Translations under genes and position numbers: made by a program
The notes under the pieces: model-generated
Database searches by the model: none
What the model saw: the letters and a program-made list of their open reading frames with translations, nothing else
Told to the model about the DNA's origin: nothing
Source of the DNA: Podarcis gaigeae
Taxonomy: Eukaryota
Reading direction: 5' to 3' (one strand)
Length of the DNA: 64,000 bases
NCBI GenBank assembly: GCA_964106915.2
Contig: OZ066918.1
Shown: piece by piece, positions 1-26,569 of the stretch
How the letters are laid out: each line of letters opens with the position of its first letter
How positions within the stretch are numbered: the stretch's first letter is position 1

Positions 1-127
1 TTTCTGTAGGGGAAGGATATGCACACATGCTTGGTGGGGGTTCATATGGCAGAGGTTTGGGCTGAATTCTGCATGCATTTAATGATCGTTCCGGATTTTT
101 TTACCCATTTTCACCATCCCTGAATTA

Positions 128-510
128 GGGACGTGGCTGGCGCTGTGGTCAAAAGCACTGGGCCACTTGGGCTTGCCAATCAGAAGGTTGGTGGCTCAAA
201 TCCCCGTGATGGGGTGAGCTCCCGTTGCTCTGTCCCAGCTCCTGCCAACCTAGCACTTTTGAAAGCACACCAGTGTGAGTAGATAAATAGGTACCACTGT
301 GGCGGGAAGGTAAACAGTGTTTCCGTGTGCTCTGGTTTCCGCCACAGTGTTCCATTGCACCAGAAGCAGTTTAGTCATGCTGGCCACATGACCTGGAAAA
401 CTGTCTGTGGACAAATGCCAGCTCCCTCAGCCTGAAAACGAGATGAGCACCGCAACCCCATAGTCACCTTTGATGGACTTAACCATCCAGGGGTCCTTTA
501 CCTTTACCTT
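128..510 (+). mobile_element. Sauria SINE
   Basis: tRNA-like head (ggcgctgtggtc...ggctcaaatcccc), core ggggtgagctcccgttgct, tail (ACCTTT)n. Confidence 0.9.
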
Positions 511-880
511 CTTTTCACCTATTCCTGAATTATGGGCTCATCCAGATATACCTATTTATTGAGCGTTCACATTCATTTGTTTACAAAGAAGTTAGACTTT
601 GTCTATTCTGTTTCTTTTGTATGTTTGACTTTAAAGTTCTTAATTTCTTCAAACCTAAACACAAAAATTACAGATTTTGCATACAGAAATAGTGACAATT
701 ACAACAAAAACTGATTACAACAAAAACTGAGAACAAATAATCCAACAAAATTTTACAACTGAGATTAATAATTCCAAAGTCCAGAACTATGATAAAATAT
801 ATCCTATCAGTATTCCCTTTCAGCTCAAGGTATTATATTGTAAATTGTAAAAAATAACCTCTGGTGTGTTGTCTAAGATA

Positions 881-1106
881 CAGTGGTACCTCGGGTTAAG
901 TATTTAATTCGTTCCGGAGGTCCGTTCTTAACCTGAAACTGTTCTTAACCTGAAGCACCACTTTAGCTAATGGGGCCTCCCGCTGCTGCCGCGCCGCCGG
1001 AGCATAATTTCTGTTCTCATCCTGAAGCAAAGTTCTCAACCCAAGGTACTATTTCTGGGTTAGCGGAGTCTGTAACCTGAAGCGTATGTAACCCGAGGTG
1101 CCACTG
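881..1106. mobile_element. Tc1/mariner(Tigger)-type MITE
   Basis: TIR cagtggtacctcgggtta...taacccgaggtgccactg, TA on both sides. Confidence 0.9.
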
Positions 1107-2216
1107 TATAGGTGGGGGCAAATAAATCAGATTAAATTAAAGGTTTCAAGTTATTCTTGTTTCATTTGCAGGATGCTTAACACTTGTTAGTTTCCGAATC
1201 CCTTTGAGGTATATCATATTAGTAAGTTATCCAGATCCTCACAACAGATTACTAACTTTATAATTTCTCTCCTTCCTTTACTGGTGTTGTTTTCTAGATA
1301 ACAGAGCTTCAGTCATAACTCTCATATACCAGTAACAAATGTGCATAATCCAAGGCTTGTGCTTGATTTTTTGTAGAAACAATAAAATAATACCAAACTG
1401 GATAAAATGTGTCTGATTTCTTTTGTGTAGTTGCCAATCTGCATCTCTCTATTAGTTTTTCTAATAAGGCCACATGTCTAATTATACCACATGTCTAAGT
1501 TCAGTCCCTCAAGGATTTTCTAGGGTCTTACTATCCTTGCCTTCACAGCAGTTAAAAAGTGACAGATGGGATCCTTGTTTTGCAAAGGTATATTTGCATC
1601 TGTAAATGGATTAAGAAGAGCCAATGTGGTGCCTTTTTAATTTTTTTATTCATTATAGTTTGTATTTTCCAGGAAGAAAACATCTAAAACGCCTGTACTT
1701 TTTGGTGCATCCGCCACATATGTATATTCCTACTTCCCCAAAGCACCTCCAACAAAGGCCACACAATGTGATGTTAATGTGAGATTCTGTGGAGTCATGT
1801 ACTAGCAGTGGACCAGTTTCAGGTTTTGACACCTAATGTGTGTGGAAATTGTTTTAAACAGTGGTTTCTCCCACACAGCTGTTCGTAGAGACTCCTCTAT
1901 CACGTTTCCACAATTCTTTCCCCACAAAGATCTTAAGAGATCAGCAGTACCTGTATCTATGTCCAGCAAAATTTCATATAAGACTTGTGCCTTGTTATCC
2001 GGCCTCTTCAATAATAAAGCTATTTTCCCAAGTTGTCAATTATTGAAGGACCAATTTTTGAATGTCTCTCTTACTTAGAAAAGAAGGCAACTGTCTCCAT
2101 AACAGCCAATGTATTGGGGTGTCATGTGAGTTTCGGCTCTTACAATGGTTTGCTGTCCTTATAGAAACTTTTTAGTTTGTCCAGCTTCCTTTGTTTCCAT
2201 ACCATCAAATTATATA

Positions 2217-2463
2217 TAGTGGTACCTCGGGTTAAGTACTTAATTCGTTCTGGAGGTCTGTTCTTAACCTGAAACTGTTCTTAACCTGAAGCACCAGTTT
2301 AGCTAATGGGGCCTCCTGCTGCTGCCACGCCGCCAGAGCACGATTTCTCTTCTCATCCTGAAGCAAAGTTCTTAACCTGAGGTACTATTTCTGGGTTAGC
2401 GGAGTCTGTAACCTGAAGCGTATGTAACCCAACCTGAAGTGTATGTATCCCGAGGTACCACTG
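2217..2463. mobile_element. Tc1/mariner-type MITE, same family as 881-1106
   Basis: Highly similar internal sequence, same TIR, TA flanks. Confidence 0.9.
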
Positions 2464-3346
2464 TATCCTAAGCTAACTTTAAAAAAAAGTCTGGATGAAA
2501 CATCAAAGGAATTAAGGTGCCTGCTGAATAGCTAGACATTCCCTAAACTTCAACTCAGAGTTGTGCAGCAATAAACAAACTAAAGGGCCCTGGGGGTAGA
2601 AAACATGGATGTTTCTGTCACAAAGACAGACTTGCTCTTCCATCACGAATTTCAAAAATACTTTCCACCTGTTATTGTGTGAGAAAGATTACAACTAAGT
2701 TACATTTTAACACTTTACATTTTAACTGTGAAAAGGATAGTGTCTTAACCACAAATTGTTTCATATGTACTCTTCATTGAGGAGAATGGGGAAATCCATG
2801 TAGAAGTTGTCCAAATGTTATTTCCCACAAAATAATCTGATAGGGTGGTGATGTCCTATGAGTCTTCAATGAGTCCTTTAAAGGCATCTAGCTGATGTGG
2901 AGTACAGAGCTGTGTGTGGTGTTTGGGGATGATTGATGTACTTGGTTTTAGATTTTTCTTCCTCTTTCGCTTGTTTGGGTTATGAACTTGCTTCCTTCCT
3001 CCTTCAGAAAATCTGTCATCTTCATCATCGTCTCCCTCATCTGAGGGTATATCTGTGTTGAGAGTGCCTTCTGGTAATTGCGCCTCTAACACTGTCAGCA
3101 GCCTCACTGACTCTTTAATGTTTCATGCTGAAGGTGCCTCTGTTAACTATCAGTAAAAGAAAAACCCCACTGGTACCTTAAGTTTACTTCTTGCATCTGA
3201 AATGTGAATGGATGGAGTTCCCTGAATTTCCTTAAAGTTTCAGGACGAAGGTCATCCATGACCATTGTTAACTGGGGTTAATATGCTATACTCTGTTGGC
3301 TGTGTATTTTTTTGCCTTTGCTATTTCTCTACTTTGTTTTTTTCAG

Positions 3347-3347
<1 letters not shown>

Positions 3348-3392
<45 letters not shown>

Positions 3393-3502
3393 TATACCTC
3401 GCCCATGACACTCTGGGCAGCTTCCAACAAAATATTAAAATACAATAGTCCGTCAAACATTAAAATCTTCCCTAAACAGGGCTGCCTTCAGATGTCTTCT
3501 AA
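3348..3502 (-). mobile_element. LINE (L2-like) 3' end with (ATT)n microsatellite tail
   Basis: (AAT)n at 3348-3392 abuts ...cttccctaaacagggctgccttcagatgtcttctaaa, typical of an L2-type terminus. Confidence 0.65.
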
Positions 3503-4400
3503 AAGGTTTCTGTTCTACTTAAGTTTACTTTTCTTCAGCATTTAATCTTTTCCTCTTATTTTTTTCCATCACTCAATGGAAGAGTGTTTGCTTTACATGC
3601 GGAAGATCTCTGGCTCAATCCGACGGCCATTTTGTTGAACTTTCTTCATTCTCTGCTTGGAAAAATACATCTTTCAGAATGTTGTTATTTTGCAGGTGGG
3701 ATTCAGTTGCACACTGCCAAATTCAGCTTGTACAAATGAAGTGGATTTGGCACTCTTATGCAACAAACCTGGTCCCCCACTCACAGTCAGTAATTTTGCA
3801 GTAAGGAAGGTAATGTGAAAATATGCTGAAAATGGTGGGGAGACAATTGCTTTATGTGATATCATATAACTTCATTGCAAACCAGTCAGAATGAAGGCTT
3901 AATAAACAGTCAACATTATCTAATCTCTCCACAAAGTTTCTGCAACTTAATCAGAATAAATGCTCAATAACAAAGTCATCAGTAAGTGACCAAAGGCTCT
4001 GTACCTTGAACAGGGCAAGTATAATAAGCTGGCTAGAATTAATGACTGTTTCTAATAGCATTACTCTGTCATCTCATACTTCAAGCAGTCCCTAAGTGAA
4101 CCTACAAACACCAGAAAAATCCATGTAAACAATTTGCAAAGTTAAGAGCACCAGCTGCATCATCAGCTCTTTAGTATAAATATGCCTTTGGGCACTGAAC
4201 TTTTGTTTTCCTTCTGCTCAGTAGCAAAGCATAGTGCAGCTCTTCAAGCAGTAACAAAGCATGTTCTGCAAACAGAATGTCAAGGTTTCATCTGTTGTAA
4301 TCATGCTAAGTTTAACAGGAGGAGTGAACAGTGGCAACTTGTGAGGCAGTGTTACAGGTGGTAGGAAGAATGAGGAAGAGGCTGCTAGATACACCTGGCT

Positions 4401-4534
4401 CAGGGATGGGAGGTCTGTGGCCTTCCAGTGGTGGGCTTCAACTCCCATCAGCCCAGGCCAGCATGGCCAATGGTTAGTACCAATGGGAAGTGGTGTTCAA
4501 CAAATTCTAGAGGGCCACAGGTTTCCCGTCCCTA
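4401..4534. mobile_element. hAT-type hairpin MITE (degenerate)
   Basis: cagggatggga...tcccgtccct ends; core caactcccatcagccc...tgggaagt shared with 7839-7975. Confidence 0.6.
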
Positions 4535-5611
4535 TCCTAGCCAGTCCACATTCATGCACCAGTAGGTCCTGAAGGCAGAAATGCTCTGATTCCAGCCCAG
4601 CCTTGCATATCTCTCTAGTAAGCTCATGGGGCCTCATCTTCCGCATGGGCCCTCTTCAGTGGTGGTGTCCTCTTGCCCTCCCCATAAATTCCATCCATTT
4701 CTACAAATGGACAAGGCCTTGGGAAAGTCAGACTAGTCACAGTGGATGCCCAAGAGACTGAAGGCAAACACCAGCAAAGATCTTAGGGATGTCAGAAGTC
4801 TTCAACAGGAAGTCAAGGGAGCTGACTAGAAACTGCCTTTGCATCCATAACGAGGAGAGAAAATGCAGCCAGTGAGAAGATGGGAGTTACAGCTTGCATT
4901 AATTGACTCTTCCAAGCTCATGTTACACTCCTCTGCCCTCAACTAGTCTTTGTACAGTTGAAGCATAGCGGGCGAGCTGCAGTTAATTCAGACAGCATCT
5001 TTAAACAGAGGGGGGAAATAGACTCCCTTCCTGGCACATTTAATTGGTGACCTGCCGACTTAACAGGACAATTTTACTTGAACTGTCTGCCTTGTGGAAG
5101 TGCTTTAGGGTTTGATTGGCCTGTCCGTCACCACAGGAGGGGGTGCATAATGAGCATCGTACTGAAAATTGCTCCCTGGAAGAGTCGCCAGGAACTGGGC
5201 ACTCTTTTTCTGCATGAAAATACAAAGCGCATGGTTTATGCTTGGGACAAATGACCTGCCATTACTTAAGCCTACAGCAACAAAAAGATATGGGATGGTG
5301 ATGGAAGTGTGATGACCTATACTATCTATGGAAATTATGTGGCCTTCTAGCTTGCAGTAATCATGGGTGGGATGTATATCTACAGAGTTTCACGGCATGT
5401 ATTTCACTTTTGATCCCATAAACACAGAGCATTCAGATGATGTGCTTCATGGTTAAAAGAAGTAACCAAACAACCACAAACTGATGGGCATTGTCGCTGG
5501 AACGCAACACACCTATCACTGCTTTGCTTCAAGGTTAACCTGATATCCATAGTCAAAACAAAAAAAAATTCCTTCCAGTAGCACCTTAAAGACCAACTAA
5601 GTTAGTTCTTG

Positions 5612-5649
5612 GTATGAGCTTTCGTGTGCATGCACACTTCTTCAGATAC
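5612..5649 (-). ncRNA. Minimal type I hammerhead ribozyme motif (mirror copy)
   Basis: Exact reverse complement of 5943-5980. Confidence 0.75.
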
Positions 5650-5942
5650 ACTGAAACAGAAGTTACCAGACCCTTCTATATAGTGAGAAGGTGGGGAGGG
5701 GTATTACTCAGAAGGGTGGTGGGAATGGGTGATTGGCAGATGGCTGTGATGAGCCTGTTGACGACTCTTAACGACTGCAATAGGTCTTACAGGAAAAAGC
5801 AGTAAGACCTATTGCAGTCGTTAAGAGTCGTCAACAGGCTCATCACAGCTATCTGCCAATCACCCATTCCCACCACCCTTCTGAGTAATACCCCTCCCCA
5901 CCTTCTCACTATATAGAAGGGTCTGGTAACTTCTGTTTCAGT

Positions 5943-5980
5943 GTATCTGAAGAAGTGTGCATGCACACGAAAGCTCATAC
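5943..5980 (+). ncRNA. Minimal type I hammerhead ribozyme motif
   Basis: GUAU-CUGAAGA-A-GUGUGC(AU)GCACAC-GAAA-GC-UC-AUAC: core CUGANGA and GAAA, stem I GUAU/AUAC, stem II, palindromic AGCU in place of stem III. Confidence 0.75.
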
Positions 5981-7838
5981 CAAGAACTAACTTACTTGGT
6001 CTTTAAGGTGCTACTGGAAGGAATTTTTTTTGTTTTGACTATGGCAGACCAACACGGCTACCTATCTGTAACTGACATCCATAAGCAGCTTATGAGTTTG
6101 TCTGCTCACACATTCAGTCTGTCACACGCATACCCTAACAAGGTATGTTAGGCTGCTTTCTATAGTTAGGGTAGCTCTGTTAATGTGCACCACTGCATGG
6201 TCCTAAACACTGCACATAATCAGAAATCTGGGCTTTTGCATGGTTCATAATTGGACGGAAAGAGTGTGAATGCATATGACAGCGGGACATGTTGTGCTGA
6301 ATGCAGGCAAGCTGAGGGCATCTGATTCTTCCTTACTGGTAACACCCCTCTTTTCAGTTATTATTTCATTAAAAGCATTTTCAACACACGTCTCCATTAA
6401 AAAGCTCAAGGTGCCGTACATTTTGGGTTGAGTCAAAATTTCTCAATAAAAGCTTTTGAATAAATTCAGGCAAAATGTCTCCTTTCCCCTTCCCTGCTCA
6501 GAAATAGCATAAAGAATATTGGGAGGCTGTTTTCATCCCTCCTTACAATGTAATCAACAGGTTTAAACCAACAATAAAATATAAAATACACAACCAGAAA
6601 GGAGAGCAGATTCAACACATAAAAACATTTTCATTATCAAATTAGGCAGGCTAAAATTTACAGCTTGGGAAGCCAAATGGCTGCTAGAAAATGAATGTTT
6701 TCACAAAGTGGTAGAAGGTCATCAGAGGGTTTGAAACAAAGAATGTGGAGTAACAGTCATCTCTTCAAAGATTTGAGAGTCTATGGGTGGTATTCAACTA
6801 AATTTTACTCAGAGCAGATCCACTGAAATTAACAGTCATCGTTAACTTAGCCATTAATTTCAATGCGACTACTCTGATTAAAAGTTAGTTGACAACAGTC
6901 CTACGTTAACACAAACTCATGAATTGCATTAGACCCCAGTCAGAAGATTTATTTATTTCAAAGCATTTATTAACCGCTTTACATGATAAAAAGTTAAAAG
7001 ATGTAAGTGATGTACAATTTAAAAAACACCCAGTATCATTTTTAGAATAGCCAAAAACCAATAACAGCAACATAAAACATGTTTACAGTGCATATACAGA
7101 TAATATAAATATAGATTACATTATGTAAACAGAAGCCTGCCACCTCTGGGTTGGTGGTGATGCAGAAAACCTGAGTTGACGTTTGCTCCAATTGAGTGCT
7201 GAAGAACAGGTTTTCATGGGGGAAGCTCCAGGGCAAAAAAACAACAACAAACCACTCAGATATGGAGCTTTTAAGCATGGACATGTGCCTGGAAAAAGCG
7301 GGGCAAAAGGTAAGTGTGGTTAAGCCCTAAAGTGGCAATGCCCCAAAGTAAAAACTGTTCTGGCAAATGATCTTTGTTACTATTTCTAGGTAACACAGCA
7401 ACAGATTCAATTAGAACAAGCTTTGGCTTTGCTCTTGATTTTCCAAGGTCCAAACAAATCACTGCTGCACAAGGGTTCAAGAGTGTACCTCCTAATTGCT
7501 GCACACATAGATATTGGCCTGGGGGGGATAGGAAGATGCTACCAACTGGCGCTTGCTGATAGGCATACACAAAGATGTGAGCAGACAAGAGGTGAAATGG
7601 AACAGGATATGTTTCTAGAGAAATGTTTCTTTTCCCATGCTGTAACACATGCCTAGAAAAAAAAGGCCAATTGTGACAAATTAGAAAGTTGCCTCAAGTG
7701 TTGGTGATCATATTGTTGGCCAGGTCCACGTTAGCAGTACAGTCCAGAACTGGTGTCTTTCATTTCTTTACTTTCTGTGGGTATCAGATAGAAGCTGGTT
7801 GGAGGGGAAACACATCACATTTCTTAAATAAGCTACAG

Positions 7839-7975
7839 CAGGCATAAGCAAACTCGGCCCTTCAGATGTTTTGGGACCACAACTCCCATCATCCCTAGCT
7901 AACAGGAATAGTGGTCAGGGGTGATGGGAGCTGTAGTCCCAAAACATTCTGGAGGGCCGAGTTTGCCTATGCCTG
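7839..7975. mobile_element. hAT-type hairpin MITE
   Basis: Long TIRs caggcataagcaaactcggccc / gggccgagtttgcctatgcctg; 8-bp TSD agctacag/agctaccg. Confidence 0.88.
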
Positions 7976-8994
7976 AGCTACCGGATAACTATGAGATGTG
8001 GCTACCATCATGCGTACTTGGCTTCAAACACCAGAGGTGTCAGAGCGGGTGGAAGCAGTGATATGTACACACCGGTGAAGTCCATTTGTTCACTGTTCAG
8101 TATGAGGATGAGCAAAGGACAAGCTATATGGTCAAAGAAACGGGAGGATTCTAGTAAACTCATTGCAGGTAGCAAAATGAAACACATGGATGCCCAAATG
8201 AAAGTTTTCCAGCATTAGGTTGAGCTGTTTACCCAGTACAGCAGAAGTAGGAAACTTGTGAGCTACACACTGAAATCCAACAGCACCTGCAGGGCCACAC
8301 TCGCAAAATATAGGAATCGGCGTATCTCTGTTTTTCTTCCTGGTTAGTAACTGAGGGGTGGTGGGAGGGTGAGAAATGTTTATTTTCCAAGAACTAAATC
8401 TGATACACACTGGAGAAGCCAACTTGTATAGGGCAGCATTCATATTCATAAAACCACAAGCTGAGCCACAGAGAATTCAGGGCAGGTATGTTGAACAAGA
8501 TTTGTAAGGGAATTCTCTCTCAGCTTCCTCAACCTTTTGTGTACCTCCTGCTGACTGGCTGATGATTGAGAAAGAAAGAAATCAATAAGTGCAGTGGGAT
8601 GGGGTGGAATAGGGTGGGAAGAACATTACAAACTACATGAGAGTGTGATCCTAGCCCCAAGAGAAACAAGCTATCTCTAGCCCAGATTCTCCTTGCTGTC
8701 TCCCACTACAAGTTGTGTAGTTAAAACCTACCATGCTATCAATAATAGATTCAATATTCCCAAAGTTATGAAAAATGATCTTCCTGGGTAATTAGATGTG
8801 GGTTCTCTTTCTCTTTTCCTTCAGTACGTTTGAGTTAAAAGGAGAAAATAAGAGATAGCTTTGGGTAGACAGAACACTGTACTGCCCTGCTGCATTTTCT
8901 GCCATAGCATTAGAAAACTACACATGGTCAAAGCCATATGGAGAAGACGCAGGACTGGTCAACAGGTGAGTAAAACATCAACATGTGTAGATAC

Positions 8995-9398
8995 CATACA
9001 CAGCACAACAGGACAATGACCTATCAATATGGTTATCCTGACCCAACAACCTACCCCCACCCTCAACACACATACAAACAAGACACACTGCAATCAATTG
9101 AATGCAGCCAACCAAGCTTGGAACCCCTAGCACCTCGTATTATCAATCAATCAATACAGGACCTAGCCACACAAACCCTGACACAAACCCTTATACTAAT
9201 AACAGGCAATAGTATGAAAGAACAATACCCCCCCCCTCTGCCCCCTTTTCCTCCAACTGCAAAATGTCTATGCCAAAAGTGTCTCTTGCTATATGTAAAC
9301 AAACTGTGAAAGAGACTATGAATTTAAATTGGAGACAATTTCTATTTATCTGTTTGGTTTGTAACACAAAAAGCTTTAATAAAAACTTATTTTAAAAA
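8995..9398 (+). mobile_element. 5'-truncated retroposed insertion (probably LINE 3' end)
   Basis: C/A-rich body, AATAAA and short A-tail, flanking duplication atgtgtaga(t/c)ac. Confidence 0.65.
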
Positions 9399-9823
9399 AT
9401 GTGTAGACACAGTCTCACCAGCTGAACACAGCTATAGACAGCTTGTACACAGGTACAAGATAATGCATGAACACATGTATAGTTACTGGTTTTAGCTTTC
9501 AACAAATGGCCTGCTTTTTTTTACAGTGGTTCAGTGATATATTTTGCCTTCACGAATACATTTTAGTTTGCATATGCACCAGGGTCCCAGAGAGTGTTCT
9601 CCTCTTTTACATAGCTGTGCTCTTTTAAGGTGTGTCTTGATGTGGACTTAGAATTAAGCCTTGGCTGCGTTTGAAAAAAGCAGCTGAGAATACAAGTATT
9701 CTCCTATCAGTGCCCCAACCCATGGCACCATTTCTTTAAAATCCTTAATGCTTCAGGGTGTTCAAAGTGCTTCCCATCAATATTCTTTATCTCGACCCTA
9801 GGAAACAGGTCAAAAAATGTATA

Positions 9824-10047
9824 CAGTGGTACCTCGGTTTACGAACTTAATCCATTCTGGAAGTCTGTTGTTAAATCAAGGCATGCTTTCCCTAATGAGG
9901 CCTCCCACCACCAGTGCCCTTCCACCGTTCAGATTCCGTTCTTAGCCTCAGGTAAATTTCTCAAACCAAGACACTATTTCTGGTTTTGCGGAGTTTGTAA
10001 ACCAAATTGTTCTTAAATCGGACTGTTCTTAAACCGAGGTACCACTG
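9824..10047. mobile_element. Tc1/mariner-type MITE, related subfamily
   Basis: TA|cagtggtacctcggttta...taaaccgaggtaccactg|TA. Confidence 0.88.
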
Positions 10048-12628
10048 TACCCACATTTCAGATGAAAGACTGAGGGACGGTTGTGTGTCTAAGAACATAC
10101 AATGTCCACTACAATTAGAGCAAGCTGAGAGTCACAAGCTAGCTTGAAATTGTGGTTTAAGGTTCCCAAATCATAGCTAGTGAACCAGGTCAGATTGACT
10201 GTCATGAACTCGCAGGACACAGAGGAAGGGGGAATAGATCCTGGTGAGGGGTGTAGCCACAATTGGTACACACCGGGTCAAACTGAAGAGGAGGGAGGGG
10301 AAGTTGGGGACTTAGGAGGTACTCACAGGACATCAGAGGATGTTTTAGGGGCAGCTGACAGTTCAGGGGTGCCAGAGGAGGGGGGATATCACCAGAACCA
10401 GAGATGCCCCGTCTCTACAGACACAACAGGCTCTGAGGCAGCAGGAACAGTAGGAAGGGTATTCTAAGAGACTGAGGCAGGCAAGGGAACACAGCCCAGC
10501 TCACTAGTGGACCAGGTGGAGATCATGGGGCTCATTAGGTCTGGGAAGAGGGTGGTGGTCACTCAGCTGGAGAAGGTCAAAGCAAGTGAGGATCACATGC
10601 TTCATCAAGTAGAGAGGCACAGCTGCTCAGGAGCAGCAATCAAGATTGGGAAAGATAAAAGGGAAGCAAGGCAGAGACTCTGTGTCTGGGCAACTTTCTC
10701 CATTGATGAACTATGGCTTGGCTGCTTTGGGAATGCCACTGGACTGTGACTTCAGGACTGACCCAAGGTTGTAGTGCATGTTGTATTGGAACTGGACTGG
10801 TATTTGACCATTTGGGCCGTCTGACTAGTCTCTAATGTTGCCCTTGGGGCTGTGTGCACTATCGAGACTTACTTCCTGGTGCACTTGGACACAGGACATT
10901 CATCCATAGAAAACAACCATAGTTTTGACTAAATAGGCCATTGTTCAGTGTTACATCCTAACCAGGCCAATGAGAGATTTGAACCAGAGACATTCTGGTT
11001 CATAATTGATGAACAACCTTGCTTTTCTGCACTAGTTCTTCACACCATGCATCAGAATGATACTGTTACAAATCATGTGAGATTGTTTGACAATTAAGGC
11101 CTATTCAATTAGACTTTTTTCTGCTCCATGTAGTTCCACAAAGTTTTCTTCCACTCCTTCTGTAATTTAAATAATTTAGTTTCCCTCCTTCTTACCCACA
11201 GACCTCAAGATATAAATATGATACCTATGTGATAAATTTATTTATCATGTGCCCTAATAGCTTCCCCTACTCACTAATCCATCTCCCTGGGACTTATTAC
11301 TTGGCACATCAAGCCCCCAAGCAACTTAAAAAATCTCTTCCTCCCACTTCGACTGCAAATTTTCAGTCTGAACCCCAGAAGAGCAGAATTCAGTATCAAA
11401 TCAACTTCGAATACATACAGATTAATTTGTCATGACAGTGGAGGCCCATAGCTCCAATCCTAAATGCAATTACTGGAATGCAAGTCCCATTAAACTTGCT
11501 GGAAATTACTATTTCCAAGTAAATATGCTAAAGATTGTGTTAAAACTCAAACTATATGTTAGATGGTTTTCATTCCCTCCCTCATTTTGTCAAGACAATA
11601 TCAGCATGCAGCCAGTGAGGCAAGGTTCGGATGGGGCCGAAATTTGTTTCAGTTAGTATTCAAAGCCATCCTACCTAGTTTGTCCTTTCTGGAACAAGAT
11701 GTGAACTGAAGCACAGCTAAGCTTCAAAGTTCACAATTCTCCAAATTTTACAATGCAGTTTGCTAATCAAGTAATCTGTACAAACAGATAGATAGACTGG
11801 CTAGGTGTGCATAAAAATGAATATGAGAGTGAACATATTAAAAAATACATTAGGCAGACATTCACACTGCAATGCTGGTGAATTTTCAAGAGGACTTTGC
11901 AGAAAAGATTGTAGGCTGCTGTAGAAGTACAGAGCTCTGAACTCAAGACTAGAAAAATGAGAAATTGAAATTGACAGATTCATTTGTCTGCACTTTCTAT
12001 GCACCTCTCCCAAAAAGATCGAAAGATGAAACAGAAAACATAGTTTTGGAGCATGACGTATCTTAATGGAGAGGTCAATCCATACATATGCATGTAGTTC
12101 AGCTCTCTGAAAATCTATCCACAGAATGAGAAATTAATTGTCCTTCAATCCAACCATGAGCCTAAAACATGGTGAGGGAAAGACACACCCAGAGAAACTT
12201 GTGAGGGGCAGAGAGTGGGCTGGCTACAGCTAGCTTAAATAGGGATGTTTGAGAAATCTGACAACAGAAATGGGAGCAGAAATTGCTGCTGTTCATTTAT
12301 TTGTCCCATATCTAGAACGGAAATCAATCCAGCGAATACACTGTGGAGTATAAAGTGGATTTGATGTTTCCCATATGTGCCTGTCTTTCACATTGTCCAC
12401 ATGACATGGATGTCAACCAAGTGGCAGGCCACACTCCCCCACCCCACCCCAAATTAAGATTTTCCTGATCTGTGGATAATGCAGTCAGGTGTGGGAGAGA
12501 GAAATCCAACATAAAATCAAAGGGTGGATGCAGTGAAGGGCATTGTGTGGCCAGGATGTTGTTGTTGTTGTTGTTTGGCTTGTTTGCATTTAAACTTTTA
12601 AATTAATACAAAACATAAACATTGGTAT

Positions 12629-13200
12629 TGTTACCACACACCCCAATCTCAGCCAAGCAGCTCTCGGTGCTTAACTAGGGTTTGTGTTCCATTGGAATGA
12701 CACATTGTAGAGATTGTGGTATCTTTAAGAGATTTGGTTTATTTACACATATTTGCCTCTGAGTTTAGGTGGAGGGAGTGCAGAACATTACACCCCAAGA
12801 GTATATCTTTATTGCTGCTTTCATAGCTTCAGCAAGCTTAGGTCCAGAACAGAAGGCCACCATACTCCCTACTCTCTCAAAGCCCCCTTCTTCCAGCCAG
12901 CGAACATAGAGTTCTCCCCTCCTTCCTCTGTTTTAAAAGGACACATTTTTTCCTGTTTTGATATCACCCTGTTACTCTGGCAACCTCCCCGCTCCCAGCT
13001 TACATCAGCGGACAATGAAATCCTAAACCTCACCTTTGTCTCTGCTCATCATCCCCTCATGAGGAAGGGCTCATACTCCTCTGCTGCCCAGCACAGGGTA
13101 ACTGGGTTAATTGCCCATTTTCTTCCTTTGTACTGCACGATGGTTCTTCTCTCTAAGCAATTCCAGGCCAAGAAACTGATTCAGCCTGCATTCCATTTAC
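12629..13200 (-). repeat. LTR-like dispersed repeat, copy 1 (boundaries approximate)
   Basis: Shares ttggaatga...tgtggt...ggtttatttacacatat...acacccc core with copies near 19790 and 27440. Confidence 0.55.
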
Positions 13201-13495
13201 ATGGAAGAGGGAGCATGCTTTATTTCTCCTGCTCTGGAGGGTAGGACTCGAGGCAATGGCTTCAACTTACAAGAAAGGAGATTCCAACTAAACATTCGGA
13301 GAAACTTTCTGACAGTAAGAGCTGTTCGGCAGTGTAACAAACTACCACAAGAGGTGGTGGACTCTTGTTTCATGAGTTTTTTTAAGCAGAAGTTGGATGG
13401 TCATCTGTAATGGATGCTTTAGCTGATATTCCTGCATTGCAGGGGGCTGGACTCAATGGTTCTTGGGTCCCTTCCAACTCTAAGATTCTGTGATT
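13201..13495 (+). mobile_element. CR1 LINE 3' end
   Basis: RTRGNGFNLQERRFQLNIRRNFLTVRAVRQCNKLPQEVV is a CR1 ORF2 C-terminus; ttccaactctaagattctgtgatt tail. Confidence 0.9.
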
Positions 13496-14465
13496 TGTAC
13501 ACTGCTAAGTTGCCTCGCCCCCAGGTGAAGACTTCAAGCATTTAGTAATTGTCTACATTTATTAACTCTAGAAATTATGAGGGAGGGGGAATCTGGTACG
13601 CAAGACTTTCAGGGGAATCTGCCCACTCGCCCAATACATAAACAACATTATTATAGAAGATTTAAGAGTTCATATAATATGCTTACTATATTAACTATCA
13701 CAATCAAGACATATATATATATAGTAAATAAATTAATAGATAGAGTATATATTTCAACAGTTGACCAACACTCTTAGTTTTACTGGAATCTCATGTTTCT
13801 CTGATTTCTTCCATCTACAAAGGAAAACAGGAAGTACCACCTTGAGGAAGTAAGTTGGTACCCTCTTGGGGTACCAGTTGCCATCCCTACAAAAATAATG
13901 GTGTCAATAGATGTTAAGAGCAAGTATTCCATCAAGGGAAGCAATGTTGGGTCTAAGCAGGAAAGAAAGTGGATCCACTTCAATGAGGGGATTAGTTGAA
14001 AGGAAGTCAAATGGGAGAGTCAGGAGCTTCAAATCTCTCTGGGATGCTTGGAGATTCTTTAAAACATAATAATAGAAGCTCAGACAGAATGTATGCCACC
14101 ACAAATTAGGAAAGATACCGTCGAAGTGGATGCCAGCCCTGTTAACAAGCAGAATCAGGGAAGCTATAAAAGGAAAGACTTCCTTTAAAAAGTTGAGAGC
14201 AGAAAGTTGAGCAATTTGGTAGCAAATAAGAGCATTGCTAAAGGAAGACAGGGAAACTGCAGAAAAGCTTAATGAATTTTTTATATTGGCCTAGGGAACA
14301 AAATATGGAGTTCTAGAGCTATTTAAATTACAAATTAGCAAGTCACCCTGTCCAGTTTTTCACAAAAGGCTGCCTAGTCTTCATAAGTGCAAAGTTGTTG
14401 CCTCAACTCCAAAAATCAATTTTTGAATTGCCACATAGACTACTGACATCAGAAATGGAATGTGT

Positions 14466-14764
14466 GGGCTTATCCACTCTTATATTTTGCCCTACACTTT
14501 CTAGACATGGACCACACTTTACAGCTCTGTGTCCAAGTGTCCTTTCTTTTCTTTTCTTTGCTCCAGACATTTTGCACGAAAACCTGCTCTTTACAGCTCA
14601 ACCCAAGCAAATGACAATCTGCTTAAAACCCAAATTGACATTTGCCCAGATTGAGCACTAAAGAGCAGGTTTTCACAGGTAAAGCTCTGGGGCAAGCAGC
14701 AGCAGCAGCACCACCACCAACAACAACAACATTGAGTGGAGGAAAGGTAAGTGTGAATAAGCCC
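14466..14764. mobile_element. MITE, possibly PIF/Harbinger-type; partial second copy near 7190-7328
   Basis: TIR gggcttatccactctta / taagtgtgaataagccc; internal inverted aaaacctgctcttta / taaagagcaggtttt. Confidence 0.65.
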
Positions 14765-16266
14765 TATATGGCTATTGGACAAAACAGTCTTATCTCCAAA
14801 AAGGGAGCTGCTTTTATTGGTTTCATATTCTTTTATGATTTTGACCCTTTCTCGCAGAACCTCTTTTCTGCCAGCCATGATGGCTACAGTCTCCTGTTTT
14901 AAAGGTAGTATATGTCCAAGTATCAGTTGCTGGTGGACCACAATGGGAGATGAGCAGATTGCTGAAAAGGTCTCACCTTTATGCCCTGCAGGAGTCTTCC
15001 AAGAAACACACAGAAATTATATATGTGAACAATTATTGCACCTGATTCTAGCACCAACTGTCACTTGAGGACCATAGGGTGGTAGCATTTAAGCCCAGGA
15101 TGGCTTGCAATCAGTTTCATGGGTTTGCATTCATACATTGAACGAGGGCTGCAGAAGTTCAAAAACTATCTAGCTGTGTTGCACTGTCCTCCAGCCCACA
15201 GGTGTTCCCATCCAAACCCCTGCCACCCCCAAGATGATGAGCCAAACATTGCTCAGCTGCCAGCTCGGACTGTGACAGGATGGAGGTCCGGGATATATTT
15301 AGAAAGAACTCTTATGCCAGCACACTCTCCCCATTACGGCAGCCGGCTAAACTAGGTCGCTCATAATTGCTATACCATATTGCCAGTGCTTCTATTTGCT
15401 GGACTGGGAGCTGGTAAAAATTGTTGACATTTCCACCTTTCCATGTTCTCTGCCTGCAGTTGCAATGAAACTGAATGGCAAAGCACACAAGTTGCTGCAG
15501 AAAAAGTGAATTGCTTGAGAAACTGAATGGGTGTTTTTGACGGGCAAATGCTATTACTGCCGCTGCTGTTAATACGATATTTTAGAACCTAGGTTGCTTC
15601 TGAAAATAATTGGGATTGCTCATTTTATCTGAAACAAGTACCTCAGGATGTGATATCAAAAACTTTCATTCACCAAAAGCATCCTTATTGTTGTTTTATT
15701 TTTTGCTGCTTTTAAATAATTGACCACCACCCCCTCCCCGCAGTCTCGTTTTAAGTTTCCACATTGGGTTTGGCAATCCAGCAGAAGTCCTTTTAGGGGG
15801 TATGCAGGCTTCACAAAGCAAATTCTCCGAGAGCAACAGTGGTGTTAGCGGGATTTACATGTGAGCAAGGGCTTAATGCTGAAAGGGCAGCCAGAAGGGA
15901 GGGGGTTCGAAAAGAACATGTTCTGAAACTAGACCCCTATCTCTATCTCTCCCTCTCTCCCTCCCTCCCTCCCTCTCTCTCCAAAATGTGTCTCCTTCCT
16001 CAGGTTTAGGAAATGGATCCCTGCTGGGATTTCCTTTCAAAGGTGACTTGTAACCTACTCATTAGGGTAGATTTCTGCCGGGTACCCACAAACAGTGCCT
16101 TTGGCAGGGTCAGCCAAAAGTCGTGCGTGTGTTTTGCGTGCATGTCTGTACGGGTGTGCAATTTGGGTGAGGGGTAGAAAATACCCAGGGCACTTGGCGG
16201 CTGTAGCAGCAGTAGCATTAGGACTTCTAAGAGGAAGGCAGGAGAGGCAATGCTCTGATGGGGACT

Positions 16267-19787: not shown

Positions 19788-20345
19788 TGTAAGATTCCAG
19801 GGCTTCAAATCGCTTACCTACGGTTTGGTTTCCTTGGAATGAGGGTCAGGGAATATTGTGGTGTCTGTTTGCCATATGGTTTATTTACACATATATACAG
19901 ACTGAGTCTATGATGAAAGAGCTCACAGCATTAACACCCCAGAAGGACTTGCATCTCCCATAGCCACAACCCTTGACATGACTATCACTCTCAGGCATCT
20001 ACTTGCTTGTAGCCCAGTCCACTCTCTCCACTCTGGCCTTTGTCCTTCTCACTACCAGCCACTACCAGCCGATTTGCCCTCACACGCAGAGCAGGTTCCT
20101 TTTTTATACTAAAGACCCATACCTAGGGCCATTACCAAGAAGCTAGCCTGGCTATTCCAACAACTGAATCCTCCATGAGATTTTAACCCTTGCTGGATCC
20201 AGGAATTAGAAGGGACTTAGGCCTCCAGCCTAATTTTGCACGCATGCACACACCAAAAAACCCCACACAGTTCTAGGCAAAATCTCCAAGCGCTCCAAAG
20301 CATTGACTCCTCTTTTGTCACCAGTTCTGCAAGACTGGCTGTGTC
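19788..20345 (-). repeat. LTR-like dispersed repeat, copy 2 (boundaries approximate)
   Basis: Aligns by eye with 27480-28000 (cacagcattaacacccc, tagccaca, gaattagaaggg). Confidence 0.6.
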
Positions 20346-21275
20346 ATGATCCTGTGATCACACCTTTATGGTGCCAGGGGCAGGCTTTCAATTCTTAGTG
20401 AAACCTCAGAGATCAAAGGGAGAGCTGAGCAGGACTTCAGTGCCTCCAGCTTCTCAGGATTTGCAGGAGGACAATAAGACTGTAACTCTGTACCCAGCTA
20501 CCTGGGAACAAATCCCATGGAGGCCAGTGGGACTTAACTTCAGAGAAGACATCTAGAAGATTGCACTGTAAATGATGAAAAATAAGCATACATATGCACA
20601 TTTCTTTAATTTATAAAGGGAAAGCATTCTAATTTCCTTAGCTCAGCCTTTTTAAAAACAATAACAACCCAGCTAAGAATTTGTCTTTGACTTCATCCAA
20701 CTATTCATACCTTTGGAAGAACAGTGAGCTTTTGCAGGTATGCCTTAAGAGCAGTCCTAGTAGTAGATCATATCCACAAAGGCTACTAGTGCTCTGTTGT
20801 TGTAGCTGTCCATGATTAAATACTCTTCTAGGGGATGGTGAATTCATTATGCTAGCCTAGTGGCTTTTAGGCTTGGGTTTCTAAGCAGTTTGGTTAGTTT
20901 GCTAGTTGGATGAATCCAAAATGTTATGAGCAATATCTGATGTTAATCATGCTCAAAGTAGACCCATTGACTTGGGTAACTTAACTCCATTGATTGAAAC
21001 TCCCTGCCTATCGACATCAGTAGGCGCCTTTGCTGTATTCATTTCAGTGCCTGCTTTAAAACATTTTTGTTTTCCAGGCACGGAAATGTTGACGTGTTTT
21101 AATCGATTTTTAGTTCACTGCTTATTTTAATTGTAAAGTTTTTAATTAATTGTTCTTAACTTCTTTATTGATAATTTTAATATTTCTTGTAAGCCACTTA
21201 AAGGTTTTGTTACAATCCAACAGTACATAATTTTTGTTAAATAAATAACACAATTTACTGGTTGTTGTTTTTTAG

Positions 21276-21326
21276 GCTTTCGAGGGGATGGCAATGCAAA
21301 CAACAAACTAGGAAATGAGCTTCATG
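21276..21326 (+). CDS. KY: KY coding exon 2 (GFRGDGNANNKLGNELH)
   Basis: ttttttAG acceptor, G|GTATGT donor, 51 nt, phase 1-1; resembles human GFQGVGNG...GNDFH. Confidence 0.85.
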
Positions 21327-21775
21327 GTATGTCATTTTCTCTCACCCTTTGAGTTTCCATGTCAGAAATGCAGTGCAGATCAGTGTATTCTAATACCGAT
21401 TAAAGGCAGCCATACCATGTTGAGAGAGGCTGGAGGGTCTCTTGGAGGTTTAATCATTAGCTCCGTATATTTTGCTGCCTGAAATATAAGGTCCAAATGC
21501 TGTCACCACTCACAGAGGCTGCTCAGATATTGTAAACAACTGGCAATCTGCTCCCATTTAATGGCATTGCAAAAATCTGTCCTTACTCAGCCTAACAGTA
21601 CAGCCGGTCCTGATGCCCATAGCAACATGGTGGCATTTGCAGAGCTAGCGATTTCTGTGCTGAAGGCAGTCTGGGGGAGAGAGCTCCCAAAGTCCCGAAT
21701 TACAGAAACGGCCAAGTACAGATATTAGCAGCCTGAATTAAGAAACCCAGATATTAGGCCGTGTGCATAACTCTT

Positions 21776-21910
21776 CAGTATTTTCCAAACTTGGTTCTCC
21801 AGCTGTTTTTGGACTACAACTCCCATCCTCCCTAGCTAGCAAGACCAGTAGTCAGGGATGATGGGAAATGAAGTTGAAAAGCAGCTGGAGACCAAGTTTG
21901 GGAAACATTG
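21776..21910. mobile_element. hAT-type hairpin MITE
   Basis: cagtattttccaaacttggt...accaagtttgggaaacattg; same core as 7839-7975. Confidence 0.75.
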
Positions 21911-22701
21911 TGAGATAATTCCATTTTGCTCATCTCAAACCACAGTACAAGAGGCAGAGTCATTCTGCTCCTCGTTCTATAAAAGCTGCCCCAGAGCAGG
22001 AGTCCCAGCAAAGGAACTACCAAGAATCTGGGCATGAAATTTTCAGATCAGAGGGAAATAGGCTCTTTAGCTTTACAACCGGATCTAACAAGACTTTACA
22101 GCGGCTTCCACCAATTCATAGGTATTCACTGAAGATCTCCAGTTGTATTGCCAGAAATCTTCATGCACCAAGCATGGAGGTGTCAACAAATCAATTTCAG
22201 GCAGTGTAGTTACTGTACTTATGAAGTCTGACACCGTGAAGCAGCCGGTGCTCCTACAGTATTTCTGAATGCTATGATGCAATTGCAGATTGAGCCATAT
22301 TAAAACAAACACATGGGCCGTCATCACACACATTGCAGCGATATCTCATCATCTTTCATGGGTCTGAGCCATGCCAGCCATAAGATACGTGGTACCCAGA
22401 ATGGCAAACACATTGCTGAAATGCTCCAGCTTCTCTCTGGGGACTGCCAATATACTGATCTTTGAAAGAAAAGGGATGCAACTCAGTGTGTCCATTGATG
22501 TAGACTGGTCTATCTTCCATGCTTGGGGGGGGGGAGGGGGCTAGTATTTTAGATCAAAATTATATAAAACCATGGACCTGTTAAAATATGAGTGTGTGTG
22601 TGTTCTGTGAATGCACAGAGTGGGGATTGAATCCATTATCCTTACTGCCAAGTTGCATGCATCAAAAGTCGGAGCAGAGTCTACATATATACAATTACAC
22701 A

Positions 22702-22798
22702 AATCATAGGATTATAGAGTTGGGCGGTACATCAAGGGTCATCTAGTCCAACCCCTTGCAATGCAGGAATCTCAGCTAAAGCATCCATGACAGATGGC
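22702..22798 (-). mobile_element. CR1 3' terminal fragment
   Basis: Reverse complement of the 13400-13495 tail. Confidence 0.8.
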
Positions 22799-23129
22799 AA
22801 AAGCTACTTTTCACAGTTATCTTACTTGGACCATGTACATGTGTTGGCTCTATTCAGACCATGGGTTGGACATAAGGAGGTGATGTTCAATTTCAGTTGG
22901 AGAAGAACAGGCAACTGGTGTTTGGGAGGGGAAATGGAATGACCTATCCTGGAGGAGGGTATGGTTGGCTGGCTGGGACTTTAAACAGGAACACCCTGCT
23001 AATAATGATACTCTTCAATCTTTTGCCACTAGTCCAACTTGCATTTTCCCTGCTTTTGCATGGACTTATCACTTTGCCCCTGTTTCATAGATTGTTTTCT
23101 TGTCACTAAAGCTTTCCTTCCATCACCAG

Positions 23130-23177
23130 GCCATGCAGCTCAGATGCAGCAAGTCATTACTTCCTGCTCTGCCCAAG
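23130..23177 (+). CDS. KY: KY coding exon 3 (GHAAQMQQVITSCSAQ); may instead start at the in-frame acceptor 23091
   Basis: QQVITSCSAQG resembles human QPQVITSYNSQG; G|GTATGT donor; two in-frame acceptors 39 nt apart. Confidence 0.8.
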
Positions 23178-23697
23178 GTATGTGATAAACCAATGAACTG
23201 TCTGATAGTGCCCTTTGCTACAAGTTACTAGAGTAAGCTTTTACCTTAGAATATCATAAAATAGTAGAGCATTTAGAGATGTTTGAACAGAGCAAAAAAT
23301 GGCATCCTATTTTGGAAAATCACCATGACCAGATGTTACAAAATTACAGAGGTTGAAAGAAGAAAAAAAACTCAATAAAATTAATCTCTGAAAGCAGGAT
23401 TAAGATGAGGGAAGGCCTACTTAAAAAATAATAATCCTGCATGCCTGATCAATCTAAATATGCCTGAGGGAGGCAAAATGTAGTTGCTAAAGGAGTATGT
23501 AATGCAATCTCAAAAGCATTTTAAACTACTTTTTTCCTGATGATTTCTCATTATAACAATAAATACTTAAAGATCCAAAATTATAGAACTTCTATTCATT
23601 TTTTAAAAAGTTTGCATTATAAAATGAAGAAAAAACAGACATATTTCAATAATCTAGCATTCTGTCTTCATAAGTAGTCTGTCAGATGCCCCTAGGA

Positions 23698-23892
23698 TAG
23701 GGCTGCCATATGTCTGGATTTTCCTGGACATTACCAGGATTTCAAAAGCGGAATTGATGTCAGAAGGGCAGTGTTTTGTCCTGGATCTTAGGCAAGTCAA
23801 AAAATCATGTTTTTGGGTGTTTTTGTAAAACAAAACAAAAAACAACAACTCAACTTTCAGGGTGTCCTGGTTTTTTCTTTGTGACAACCCTA
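23698..23892. mobile_element. hAT (Blackjack-like) MITE
   Basis: TIR tagggctgcca / tgacaacccta; 8-bp TSD ccctagga/cccttgga. Confidence 0.8.
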
Positions 23893-25228
23893 CCCTTGGA
23901 GGAAGAACATTATACAGATAGTTTTCTAATCCTCCAAAAGAGAATGGCTATCATGAAGTGATATAGCACATTCTTTGCATGCAATGTTCACAGGTTCAAT
24001 TCCTGCAATTCCCAGTAGGTCCCTCAGAAAACTCCTATAGCTATGCCCACCAAAGCAGCCATTTAATGAATGGGCTGCTTTCCATGGCAGCCATTTTGTG
24101 AGTGTCCACTGCTTTTTCTCAAAATTCCCTTGCACTAGATAGACCAGTGATTCGACTTGTCGTTAGGCAGCTTCCTATGATCTTCTTAGAGGCTACCCCC
24201 ATCCCACGACTTTTTGCTGCAAATCTGCTCCTCAAAAAAAAAAAAATTGCAAGCCCAATTGTAAGCCCAATTTCCCTTGTGGAGAAAGAGTAGAAAAGAT
24301 TCTACTAAACTAAAAGAGAACTGGAAGAAGTAAGAATGAAGGACTGACAGGGCAATTACTTGACTTCATTGTCTGCAAAGAAACTACAGAACATCTGTTA
24401 AGTGCCCAGAGGCTCCCAGTCAAATTTCTCTGTTTGATGAGGAAATATCAAACACAAAGGGGTATACAACTGTCAAAATATGTCTTGATTGAAGAAAGTC
24501 CCTCATGGTTCCCTTCTAAGAGAGGCTGAGAAATGAGAATTGGCTTGAGGTAGTTATACATCTGAACTTTTGAATAGCTTATACTGAAAGCAAACATAAA
24601 GGAAGCATATTTATGTGGGTAGCCAGCTCATAAACTTTCTAAACAGAGTGTTGTCCCCTCTGCAGAGGAAGCTGTGTGGATTCAAAGCACTGGAGGAAGG
24701 ACTTTGAATCCACACAGCTTCCTCCAGCTGCCTTGTCTGCACCAGACAGCTCCTGACAGCAAACTCTCTAGTTTACCAATCCTCCCACTTGCAAAGGAAC
24801 AATTCCTTTCAGTTCCTGATTGTTCTGGATTGTGACTTGGATTGTCCTGGTTGTGACTTGGAAAAAATGGCCTTTTCTGCCATTTTGTTTTGTATGGGAA
24901 TGTAACCAGTGTTGCACAAACGGACACCTGCTTGTTTAAGAGGGCTTTCTGGCTGTCCTTCTCCCCACTGCAACCCCTTTGCCCCTTGAAGGCCTGGAAT
25001 GTGGCACAGGGAGTGGTAGCGGGAGGAGAGAATTACCCAAAGCTACTTTCATTCCCACTATCACTGCAGCTCTTAGCATTTTGGGGTTTCAGTAGGAAGG
25101 AGGAATGCAGGATTATCCTAACACTTTCATCCTTGGGTTTTCACTGCCTTGGATGCAAGGCATGATGCTTACATGCTGAATTACGTTTCCCGGTACTGAC
25201 CAGCTTCAAAAATTCTTGCTTGTTTCAG

Positions 25229-25303
25229 GAACCCACGTGACAGTAGAAGTACATGCTAGAAATTCTACCCCACAGTTGTTCAAAAAACTCTCCTTTGGGA
25301 AAG
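25229..25303 (+). CDS. KY: KY coding exon 4 (GTHVTVEVHARNSTPQLFKKLSFGK)
   Basis: tgtttcAG acceptor, G|GTATGC donor; resembles human GTQLTVEVHPRDAMPQLLKKFSLAK. Confidence 0.92.
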
Positions 25304-25556
25304 GTATGCCGCTTTTAAAAATCAATATTTTGTTTTGGAACAATTCTTACACATTTATTTTTTTTGTTCCCTTGTTCTCGCAGCAATAAAAATAAATTGA
25401 CTGGTTCCTTGATAAAGGCAAAATATCTCATATGAAATGAAATGAAAGAGGAAGTCCTCAAATCTTCTGCAGACTCGCTAGGTAGCCTTAGGAAAGACAT
25501 TTTCTCTTATCCACAATTCCTCCACTGTGATATGTGGGATATTAACAGTGGCCTAC

Positions 25557-26512: not shown

Positions 26513-26569
26513 GTTTTCCGGAGAACAGAAAACGCAGACCCCGTCCACCGGGTTTGAAAGACCAGCATG
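26513..26569 (+). CDS. KY: KY coding exon 5 (GFPENRKRRPRPPGLKDQH)
   Basis: tttcatAG acceptor, G|GTAACT donor; resembles human RPRQPGGKDAH; frame continuous with exons 4 and 6. Confidence 0.88.

What the first reader, a model, noticed from the sequence alone, without database searches (positions are those of the whole stretch)
5612..5980. Pair of minimal hammerhead ribozymes, one on each strand
Seen: GTAT CTGAAGA A GTGTGC AT GCACAC GAAA GC TC ATAC at 5943-5980 (+) and its exact mirror at 5612-5649 (-). It has the CUGANGA/GAAA core, a 4-bp stem I, a stem II and a predicted cleavage after the UC at 5975-5976. Stem III is reduced to the palindrome AGCU. A TATA-like ctatatag lies ~35 nt upstream of each copy. 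Known: PLE pLTRs carry minimal type I hammerheads that cleave as dimers through a palindromic stem III. Inference: a read-through transcript holds the ribozyme and its perfect antisense, so it should be self-inhibited, whereas RNAs starting inside the palindrome could cleave. That would be a built-in switch.
Basis: partly seen in the sequence, partly recalled or inferred. Interest (0 to 1): 0.7.

Follow-up and report, generated by a model that had tools for sequence, protein, structure and literature searches.

The report
Back-to-back Penelope retrotransposon stump with hammerheads
The two mirror-image hammerhead motifs are real, but they are the duplicated end of a very abundant Penelope-like jumping gene in a lizard, likely laid down back-to-back when one RNA was copied onto both cut DNA strands, so the pair is ordinary and probably not an evolved switch.

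Summary
Observation confirmed. The 38-nt minimal type I hammerhead lies at 5943-5980 (+) with an exact mirror at 5612-5649 (-). Both sit in one 244-bp inverted duplication between 12-bp target-site duplications. It is a 5'-truncated copy of a young Neptune-type Penelope-like element (RT plus GIY-YIG ORF in a full-length copy; 9,021 exact 38-mers in the genome). Contigs of two related organisms show the empty site. Head-to-head copies are the family's commonest form (50 of 82 sampled), and opposite-strand minimal hammerhead pairs were published in 2014. The switch idea is not supported: junctions are arbitrary, most pairs lack the TATA, and there is no covariation or conservation. Family statistics point to a mechanism: 41 of 42 classifiable pairs have one tailed and one short arm, neither nested, sharing alleles (38 of 40). 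5' ends pile up at the hammerhead's first base, often with an extra G (1,990 junctions versus 33 at the cut site). Both nicked strands likely prime on one capped, uncut RNA at two sites about 35 nt apart. My searches did not find this model in print; this scan's notes reached it before on other genomes.

The parts
5540..5551 (+). Left target-site duplication, 12 bp (one mismatch to the right copy); its last 5 nt also match the element end (microhomology)
   Evidence: the 12-nt overlap is single-copy in contigs of runs X21 and X22
5547..5801 (-). Inverted arm: element 3' UTR/pLTR from 11 nt upstream of the right arm's start to the ORF start codon region; lacks the tail (short 3' end)
5612..5649 (-). 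Minimal type I hammerhead, mirror copy; predicted cut 5616/5615
5676..5683 (-). TATA-like box, mirror copy
   Evidence: sequence; function inferred
5802..6074 (+). Direct arm: 5'-truncated pLTR with tail (long 3' end)
5909..5916 (+). TATA-like box about 30 nt upstream of the inferred start site
   Evidence: sequence; 5'-end peak
5940..5943 (+). Inferred transcription start of the element, at the first base of hammerhead stem I
   Evidence: 64 of 129 fragment 5' ends at 5939-5945; 1,990 junctions at 5943, extra G in 68 of the first 100 listed (counted by eye); not measured on RNA
5943..5980 (+). Minimal type I hammerhead; predicted cut 5976/5977
   Evidence: cleavage untested
6041..6074 (+). 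Start codon and first codons of the PLE ORF; 6045-6074 is the one-sided tail
   Evidence: the 910-aa ORF of full-length copy L130 begins at the equivalent ATG
6072..6083 (+). Right target-site duplication, 12 bp; first 3 nt also match the element (microhomology)

Best explanation
This is a recent, 5'-truncated insertion of a Neptune-type Penelope-like retroelement whose hammerhead-bearing end is present twice, head-to-head, likely because both strands of the cut target primed reverse transcription on the same uncut element RNA. Shown: family identity, copy number, empty site, TSD, arm geometry. Inferred steps: the GIY-YIG/RT protein nicks the two strands about 12 nt apart. Each 3' end anneals by a few bases to one of two start zones on the RNA (equivalent to about 6031-6044 and 6068-6074). 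Both cDNAs run toward the RNA 5' end, stopping at the capped start (5940-5943) or, as here, at arbitrary points. Their free ends are joined, giving an inverted repeat with a tail on one side only. The hammerhead rides along uncut. A read-through RNA of this copy would fold into a 244-bp hairpin that silences it, as a side effect rather than a selected function.
For: Identity: copies extend upstream into a GIY-YIG frame. Full-length L130 has direct pLTRs and a 910-aa ORF with RVT_1 and GIY-YIG above Pfam cut-offs and a C-x4-C-x2-C linker. Abundance: 9,021 exact 38-mers, 0 controls; 14 head-to-head pairs among the first 100 listed. Position-ordered sample: 50 of 82 insertions head-to-head; 41 long+short, 1 short+short, 0 long+long, 8 unclassifiable (p about 1e-11 against random pairing of the 42); 49 of 79 with a 10-17-bp TSD. 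Arms are not nested: the short arm reaches >= 5 nt further 5' in 17 of 41, the long arm in 11 of 41; the window's short arm does so by 11 nt. Arms share the 56:64 A/G variant at 5989 in 38 of 40 pairs. Microhomology >= 2 nt at the long end in 22 of 34. Junctions at 5943: 1,990; at the cut site 5977: 33; controls 35 and 66. Empty site in runs X21, X22. Published: the Anolis PLE protein cuts and extends both strands, starts at two adjacent internal sites that define the tail, is predicted to be a dimer, and inserts uncut RNA (PMC11167929).
Against: No biochemistry here; the order of events is inferred from end positions. 29 of 82 insertions are single-orientation and 30 of 79 show no 10-17-bp TSD. 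Microhomology at the short end is weak (>= 2 nt in 9 of 34, negative offsets in 14 of 34), partly because of a variable T run. Shared alleles could also come from two RNAs of one source locus or from later conversion between arms. PMC11167929 saw no difference in start site between top and bottom strands in bulk, which neither shows nor excludes one-site-per-strand pairing. The sample was chosen for an exact hammerhead on one contig, so it favours young copies. The base before 5941 ends is mostly T (16 of 20), which the cap idea does not explain.
Confidence: 0.78

Rival explanations
1. The inverted arm arises by fold-back or self-priming: one cDNA (or an antisense RNA) loops back and is copied, as proposed for Adineta Penelope elements.
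For: Proposed in PMC3846280 (Discussion). The TATA 8-mer is a palindrome, so antisense transcription is possible. Allele sharing between arms (38 of 40) fits. Many inner junctions show short overlaps or extra bases (-3 to +22 nt).
Against: Fold-back on one cDNA makes the second arm nested in the first. In 17 of 41 pairs, and in the window copy, the short arm reaches further 5' while the long arm reaches further 3'. Short ends also occur on 14 of 29 single-orientation copies. The extra G and 5'-end peak fit a capped sense RNA.
Confidence: 0.12
2. Two separate RNAs (or a ribozyme-made RNA circle) serve the two strands, held asymmetrically by a protein dimer; long upstream-reaching arms come from circles read across the ligation site.
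For: Circles are proposed in PMC4209133. 48 of 129 fragments reach upstream of 5939, which a circle explains as well as a linear RNA with a 3' pLTR. Two RNAs from one active source would share alleles.
Against: Nothing marks the cut site in the genomic ends. Capped-start ends cannot come from circles. Strict long+short pairing is simpler on one RNA.
Confidence: 0.15
3. The pair is an evolved switch: read-through RNA is self-inhibited, RNAs starting at the inner TATA boxes cleave, and this controls the element or the neighbouring KY gene.
For: Read-through locking is predicted. This copy keeps both TATA boxes, as do 8 of 37 two-arm insertions.
Against: Junctions are arbitrary and 26 of 37 lack any TATA. 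The site is empty in two related organisms whose left flank differs by 1.3-2%. The copy has no ORF to control. Minimal monomers were inactive in vitro. The hammerhead stems are not favoured in the predicted fold of an outward RNA 5943-6300 (a weak prediction). No covariation among 281 aligned hammerhead segments, with overlapping loci counted repeatedly.
Confidence: 0.03

Closest known systems
Opposite-strand dual minimal hammerheads of truncated PLEs (Cervera and de la Pena 2014, PMC4209133)
   Same: Minimal type I motif with 4-5-bp stem I, long stem II, extra base before G10.1, palindromic 15.2-16.2; pairs about 100-700 bp apart on opposite strands; thousands per genome; similar motifs noted in turtle and snakes.
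   Different: That paper gave no insertion anatomy for the pairs; this lacertid family is young and nearly invariant.
EN+ PLE insertions with inverted pLTR and one-sided 30-40-bp tail (PMC3846280; PMC8557442; D. virilis Penelope, PMC2377424)
   Same: Head-to-head inverted 5'-truncated copy, tail on one end, TSD, TATA plus initiator in the pLTR, first codons of the ORF in pLTR and tail.
   Different: Those papers invoke self-priming on an antisense template or endonuclease resolution; the ends here favour priming from both target strands.
Poseidon of Anolis carolinensis, PAc (Frangieh et al. 2024, PMC11167929)
   Same: Lizard PLE; two internal RT start sites bounding the tail; both strands cut and extended; uncut RNA is the main template.
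   Different: PAc is Penelope/Poseidon clade with the ORF starting in stem II and RT starts about 111-118 nt into the ORF; here the linker is Neptune-type and the ORF starts about 60 nt after the hammerhead, with RT ends flanking the first codons.
LINE-1 twin priming (as described in PMC11702581)
   Same: Second RT primed by the other target end on the same RNA; discrete 12-18-bp TSD; microhomology; extra G at full-length 5' ends.
   Different: In L1 the second primer anneals next to where the first RT ended, giving an inversion with little overlap; here both start about 35 nt apart and copy the same stretch, giving an inverted duplication.
Animal non-LTR retrozymes (bioRxiv 10.64898/2026.07.22.740005)
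   Same: Non-coding, PLE-related, type I hammerhead.
   Different: Retrozymes are head-to-tail tandem repeats; this is head-to-head, flanked by its own TSD.

Membership tests
Minimal type I hammerhead of metazoan PLEs | Conserved core, stems I and II, extra base before G10.1-C11.1, palindromic stem III without loop | tested here: met
   descriptor parse, 2 hits in window, 0 in 60 resamplings; definition
Minimal type I hammerhead of metazoan PLEs | Located in the pLTR of a PLE | tested here: met
   present in both pLTRs of full-length L130
Minimal type I hammerhead of metazoan PLEs | Covariation of stems I and II | tested here: inconclusive
   35 distinct variants among 281 segments, none compensatory; the family is young; other species not aligned
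Minimal type I hammerhead of metazoan PLEs | Self-cleavage as dimer or with protein help | not testable with these tools
   no excess of genomic 5' ends at the cut site is indirect only
Rfam hammerhead families | Score against Rfam covariance models | tested here: not met
   no hammerhead match at E <= 1 in window 1-15000
EN+ Penelope-like element | Single ORF with RT and C-terminal GIY-YIG | tested here: met
   910 aa, PF00078 45.5 bits and PF01541 26.5 bits; in family copy L130, not in the window copy
EN+ Penelope-like element | CCHH motif with two Cys between GIY and YIG | tested here: met
   both Cys and two later His seen in L019 and L091; one Cys is changed in L130; read by eye
EN+ Penelope-like element | Direct or inverted pLTRs, 5' truncation, one-sided tail, TSD | tested here: met
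Neptune clade | CX2-5CxxC linker between RT and EN | tested here: met
   C-x4-C-x2-C; shared with Nematis
Neptune clade | Placement in an RT phylogeny | not tested
   no reference PLE proteins were fetched; hence 'Neptune-type'
Non-LTR retrozyme | Head-to-tail tandem units each with a hammerhead | tested here: not met
   the window copy is inverted

The most novel reading that the evidence does not exclude
The thousands of young copies record the Penelope insertion reaction: one protein complex primes both target strands on a single capped, uncut RNA, always one strand at each of two start sites about 35 nt apart. The RNA begins at the first base of the hammerhead and cut RNAs leave no trace as templates, so the ribozyme would act as a brake that decaps the element's own message rather than as a processing step for copying.
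Probability: 0.5. Interest if true: 0.55.

Novelty: new member of a known kind. Interest (0 to 1): 0.3.

Why it matters
The locus itself matters little: it is one of probably over a thousand such palindromes in this genome (extrapolated). The family matters more. How PLEs make inverted pLTRs and one-sided tails, and what their hammerheads do, are stated open questions (PMC8557442). This young family with a 910-aa open copy gives sharp, testable predictions: one long and one short arm per insertion, a shared template, a start at 5940-5943, and no use of cut RNA. It also implies that many long hairpin RNAs can arise by read-through in lacertid genomes, a likely source of small RNAs (inference).

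Tried and rejected
Rfam scan: only microRNA-type hairpin matches below gathering scores. Bacterial promoter scan: 0 sites, not suited to a vertebrate. Exact-pattern counts (6,097; 419) were first meant as a copy-number curve; rejected because they hit subfamily variants. A hint of 3 of 100 ends exactly at 5977 (by eye) vanished in whole-genome counts (33 versus 35 and 66; the 66 include single-base insertions). Expression: no RNA holder listed; the one guessed-RNA run laid (X1, contigs) covers the repeat but not the unique flank 6098-6763; neither is evidence on expression. Covariation: none within the family; a relaxed genome-wide pattern gave 13,553 matches, the first 100 almost all this family. 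Lunse et al. (dimer cleavage) is not held and was seen only through a review. PMC2997562 was irrelevant. Earlier-findings look-ups by sequence and by place gave nothing. Considered and rejected: an assembly artefact, because the arms differ at 3 places, a TSD is present and run X19 holds the right junction; a DNA-transposon MITE, because the sequence is the end of an RT element with variable junctions.

Full report
Observation. The 38-mers at 5943-5980 (+) and 5612-5649 (-) are identical. They parse as a minimal type I hammerhead: 4-bp stem I, full core, one extra A before stem II, stem III reduced to a 4-nt palindrome, predicted cut after 5976. My descriptor gave these 2 hits in the window and 0 in 60 resampled windows. 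The fold energy alone is ordinary (z = -0.44) and Rfam's hammerhead models did not match. The two motifs are one motif inside a 244-bp inverted duplication with 2 substitutions and 1 indel.

What it belongs to. The right arm has 99-100% matches on many contigs. Longer copies run upstream into a GIY-YIG frame. Copy L130 is full length: two direct pLTRs around a 910-aa ORF with RT and GIY-YIG domains above Pfam cut-offs and the CX2-5CxxC linker of Neptune/Nematis PLEs (definition). No tree was built. The ORF starts at the ATG equivalent to 6041, so the 30 nt found only on the right arm are its first codons, the PLE 'tail'. The genome holds 9,021 exact 38-mers and at least 13,843 arms. The nearest gene is KY, first coding exon at 16258; its last exon is 98% identical to a lacertid protein.

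Age. A 12-bp TSD flanks the insertion (5540-5551, 6072-6083). In run X21 a 2,381-nt contig lies on 3902-5551 with letters 1-1645 and on 6072-6812 from letter 1634; in X22 a 2,380-nt contig does the same with 1-1650 and 1639. I matched these records across the two calls by length and depth. The 12-letter overlap is the single-copy target, so the site is empty in two related organisms whose left flank differs at 33 of 1,645 and 22 of 1,650 letters. Run X19, possibly the source of the assembly, carries the right junction.

Family anatomy. I took 88 loci around the first 100 exact hammerheads listed on contig C1 and mapped them on L130. Of 95 insertion groups, 13 were dropped for lacking a >= 94% fragment spanning the hammerhead. 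Of the 82 kept, 50 are head-to-head, 29 single-orientation, 3 other; 28 have the whole hammerhead on both arms. 3' ends fall in two zones, about 6031-6042 and 6068-6074. Among the 50 pairs: 41 long+short, 1 short+short, 0 long+long, 8 unclassifiable. 49 of 79 searched have a 10-17-bp TSD. In the 41 pairs the short arm reaches further 5' in 17, the long arm in 11, within 4 nt in 13; arms agree at the polymorphic site 5989 in 38 of 40. Overlap of TSD and element is >= 2 nt in 22 of 34 long ends but only 9 of 34 short ends. The window copy has 3 nt and 5 nt.

5' ends. 64 of 129 fragment ends lie at 5939-5945 and 1 at 5975-5979. In a list chosen on sequence downstream of the cut site, 40 of 100 ended at 5940-5945, 33 ran further upstream, 24 ended at 5946-5973 and 3 at 5974-5977 (counted by eye). 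With the same four-mismatch filter, the whole genome has 1,990 junctions at 5943, 33 at 5977, 35 at 5982 and 66 at 5969. The base before 5943 is G in 68 of the first 100 listed (by eye; 50 of 82 after removing rows where the partner arm could supply it) and in 16 of 23 in my loci. In L1 an extra G marks a copied cap (PMC11702581, passages). With the TATA 30 nt upstream, I infer that element RNA starts at or just before the first base of stem I and is copied uncut. Ends at 5941 are preceded mostly by T (16 of 20), probably from joining by microhomology; this is unexplained.

Mechanism. Most likely both target strands, nicked about 12 nt apart, prime on one RNA at the two start zones; the cDNAs are joined at their far ends. 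Non-nested arms argue against fold-back of one cDNA. This fits the Anolis PAc biochemistry: both strands cut and extended, two adjacent internal starts, predicted dimer, hammerhead active only with protein and not needed for insertion (PMC11167929, parts 1-2 of 4). Two RNAs from one source, or circles for the long arms, are not excluded.

The switch. Read-through RNA of either strand is predicted to pair all 38 hammerhead bases with the other arm (>= 0.997), so self-inhibition is physically sound. Nothing suggests it is selected: inner junctions vary, 26 of 37 two-arm insertions have no TATA, 3 have one, 8 have both; the site is lineage-specific; the copy has no ORF; no compensatory changes were seen; single minimal hammerheads did not cleave in vitro (PMC4209133, parts 1-2 of 4). 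No usable RNA data were available.

Prior art. Opposite-strand minimal hammerhead pairs 100-700 bp apart are described in PMC4209133. Inverted pLTR with one-sided tail and TSD is in PMC3846280 (passages and Discussion), PMC8557442 (passages) and PMC2377424 (passages). Dimer cleavage is reviewed in PMC6765202 (passages). The retrozyme preprint was read in part 1 of 5. Eight searches returned no paper whose listing or passages state dual priming with fixed long+short pairing or cap-G ends for PLEs; subscription papers and supplements (notably Fig. S2 of PMC11167929) were not seen. Unchecked notes of this scan reached the dual-priming reading on other genomes; my reading was written down before that look-up.

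Verdict. Real motif, known kind, ordinary locus; the switch is unlikely. Interest 0.3, carried by the family-level clues to the PLE insertion reaction.

Noticed in passing
L136 (G000:C1:3476883-3477168) and L165 (G000:C1:6153532-6153811): Head-to-tail tandem pairs of the 5' leader, each unit starting at 5941-5944 and about 180-190 bp apart; this is the arrangement that could form an active hammerhead dimer and resembles a nascent retrozyme.
   Followed up: no
window 16258-43361 (+): KY (kyphoscoliosis peptidase) gene, coding exons mapped by tblastn with lizard homologues.
   Followed up: partly
window 51492-51941 (-): 149-aa open frame with no Pfam match above cut-off; possibly a CEP63 exon, from recalled synteny only.
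   Followed up: no
window 878-1110, 2214-2466, 9814-10058: Three copies of a 230-250-bp element with 21-34-bp terminal inverted repeats, MITE-like.
   Followed up: no
window 7839-7975 and 14578-14674: Long hairpins in abundant repeats; the first scores below threshold against Rfam mir-5408.
   Followed up: no
L019 flanks (G000:C17:1122157-1125425): The PLE copy sits inside retrovirus-like gag and pol frames; observed only.
   Followed up: no
G000:C1:185356-185431: Small palindrome whose two arms meet exactly at the stem III palindrome, suggesting joining through that 4-nt self-complement.
   Followed up: no
runs X21, X22 on window 5802-6097: The same family is abundant in the related organisms E and C (20,000-30,000 contigs laid), so it was active in several lineages.
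   Followed up: no
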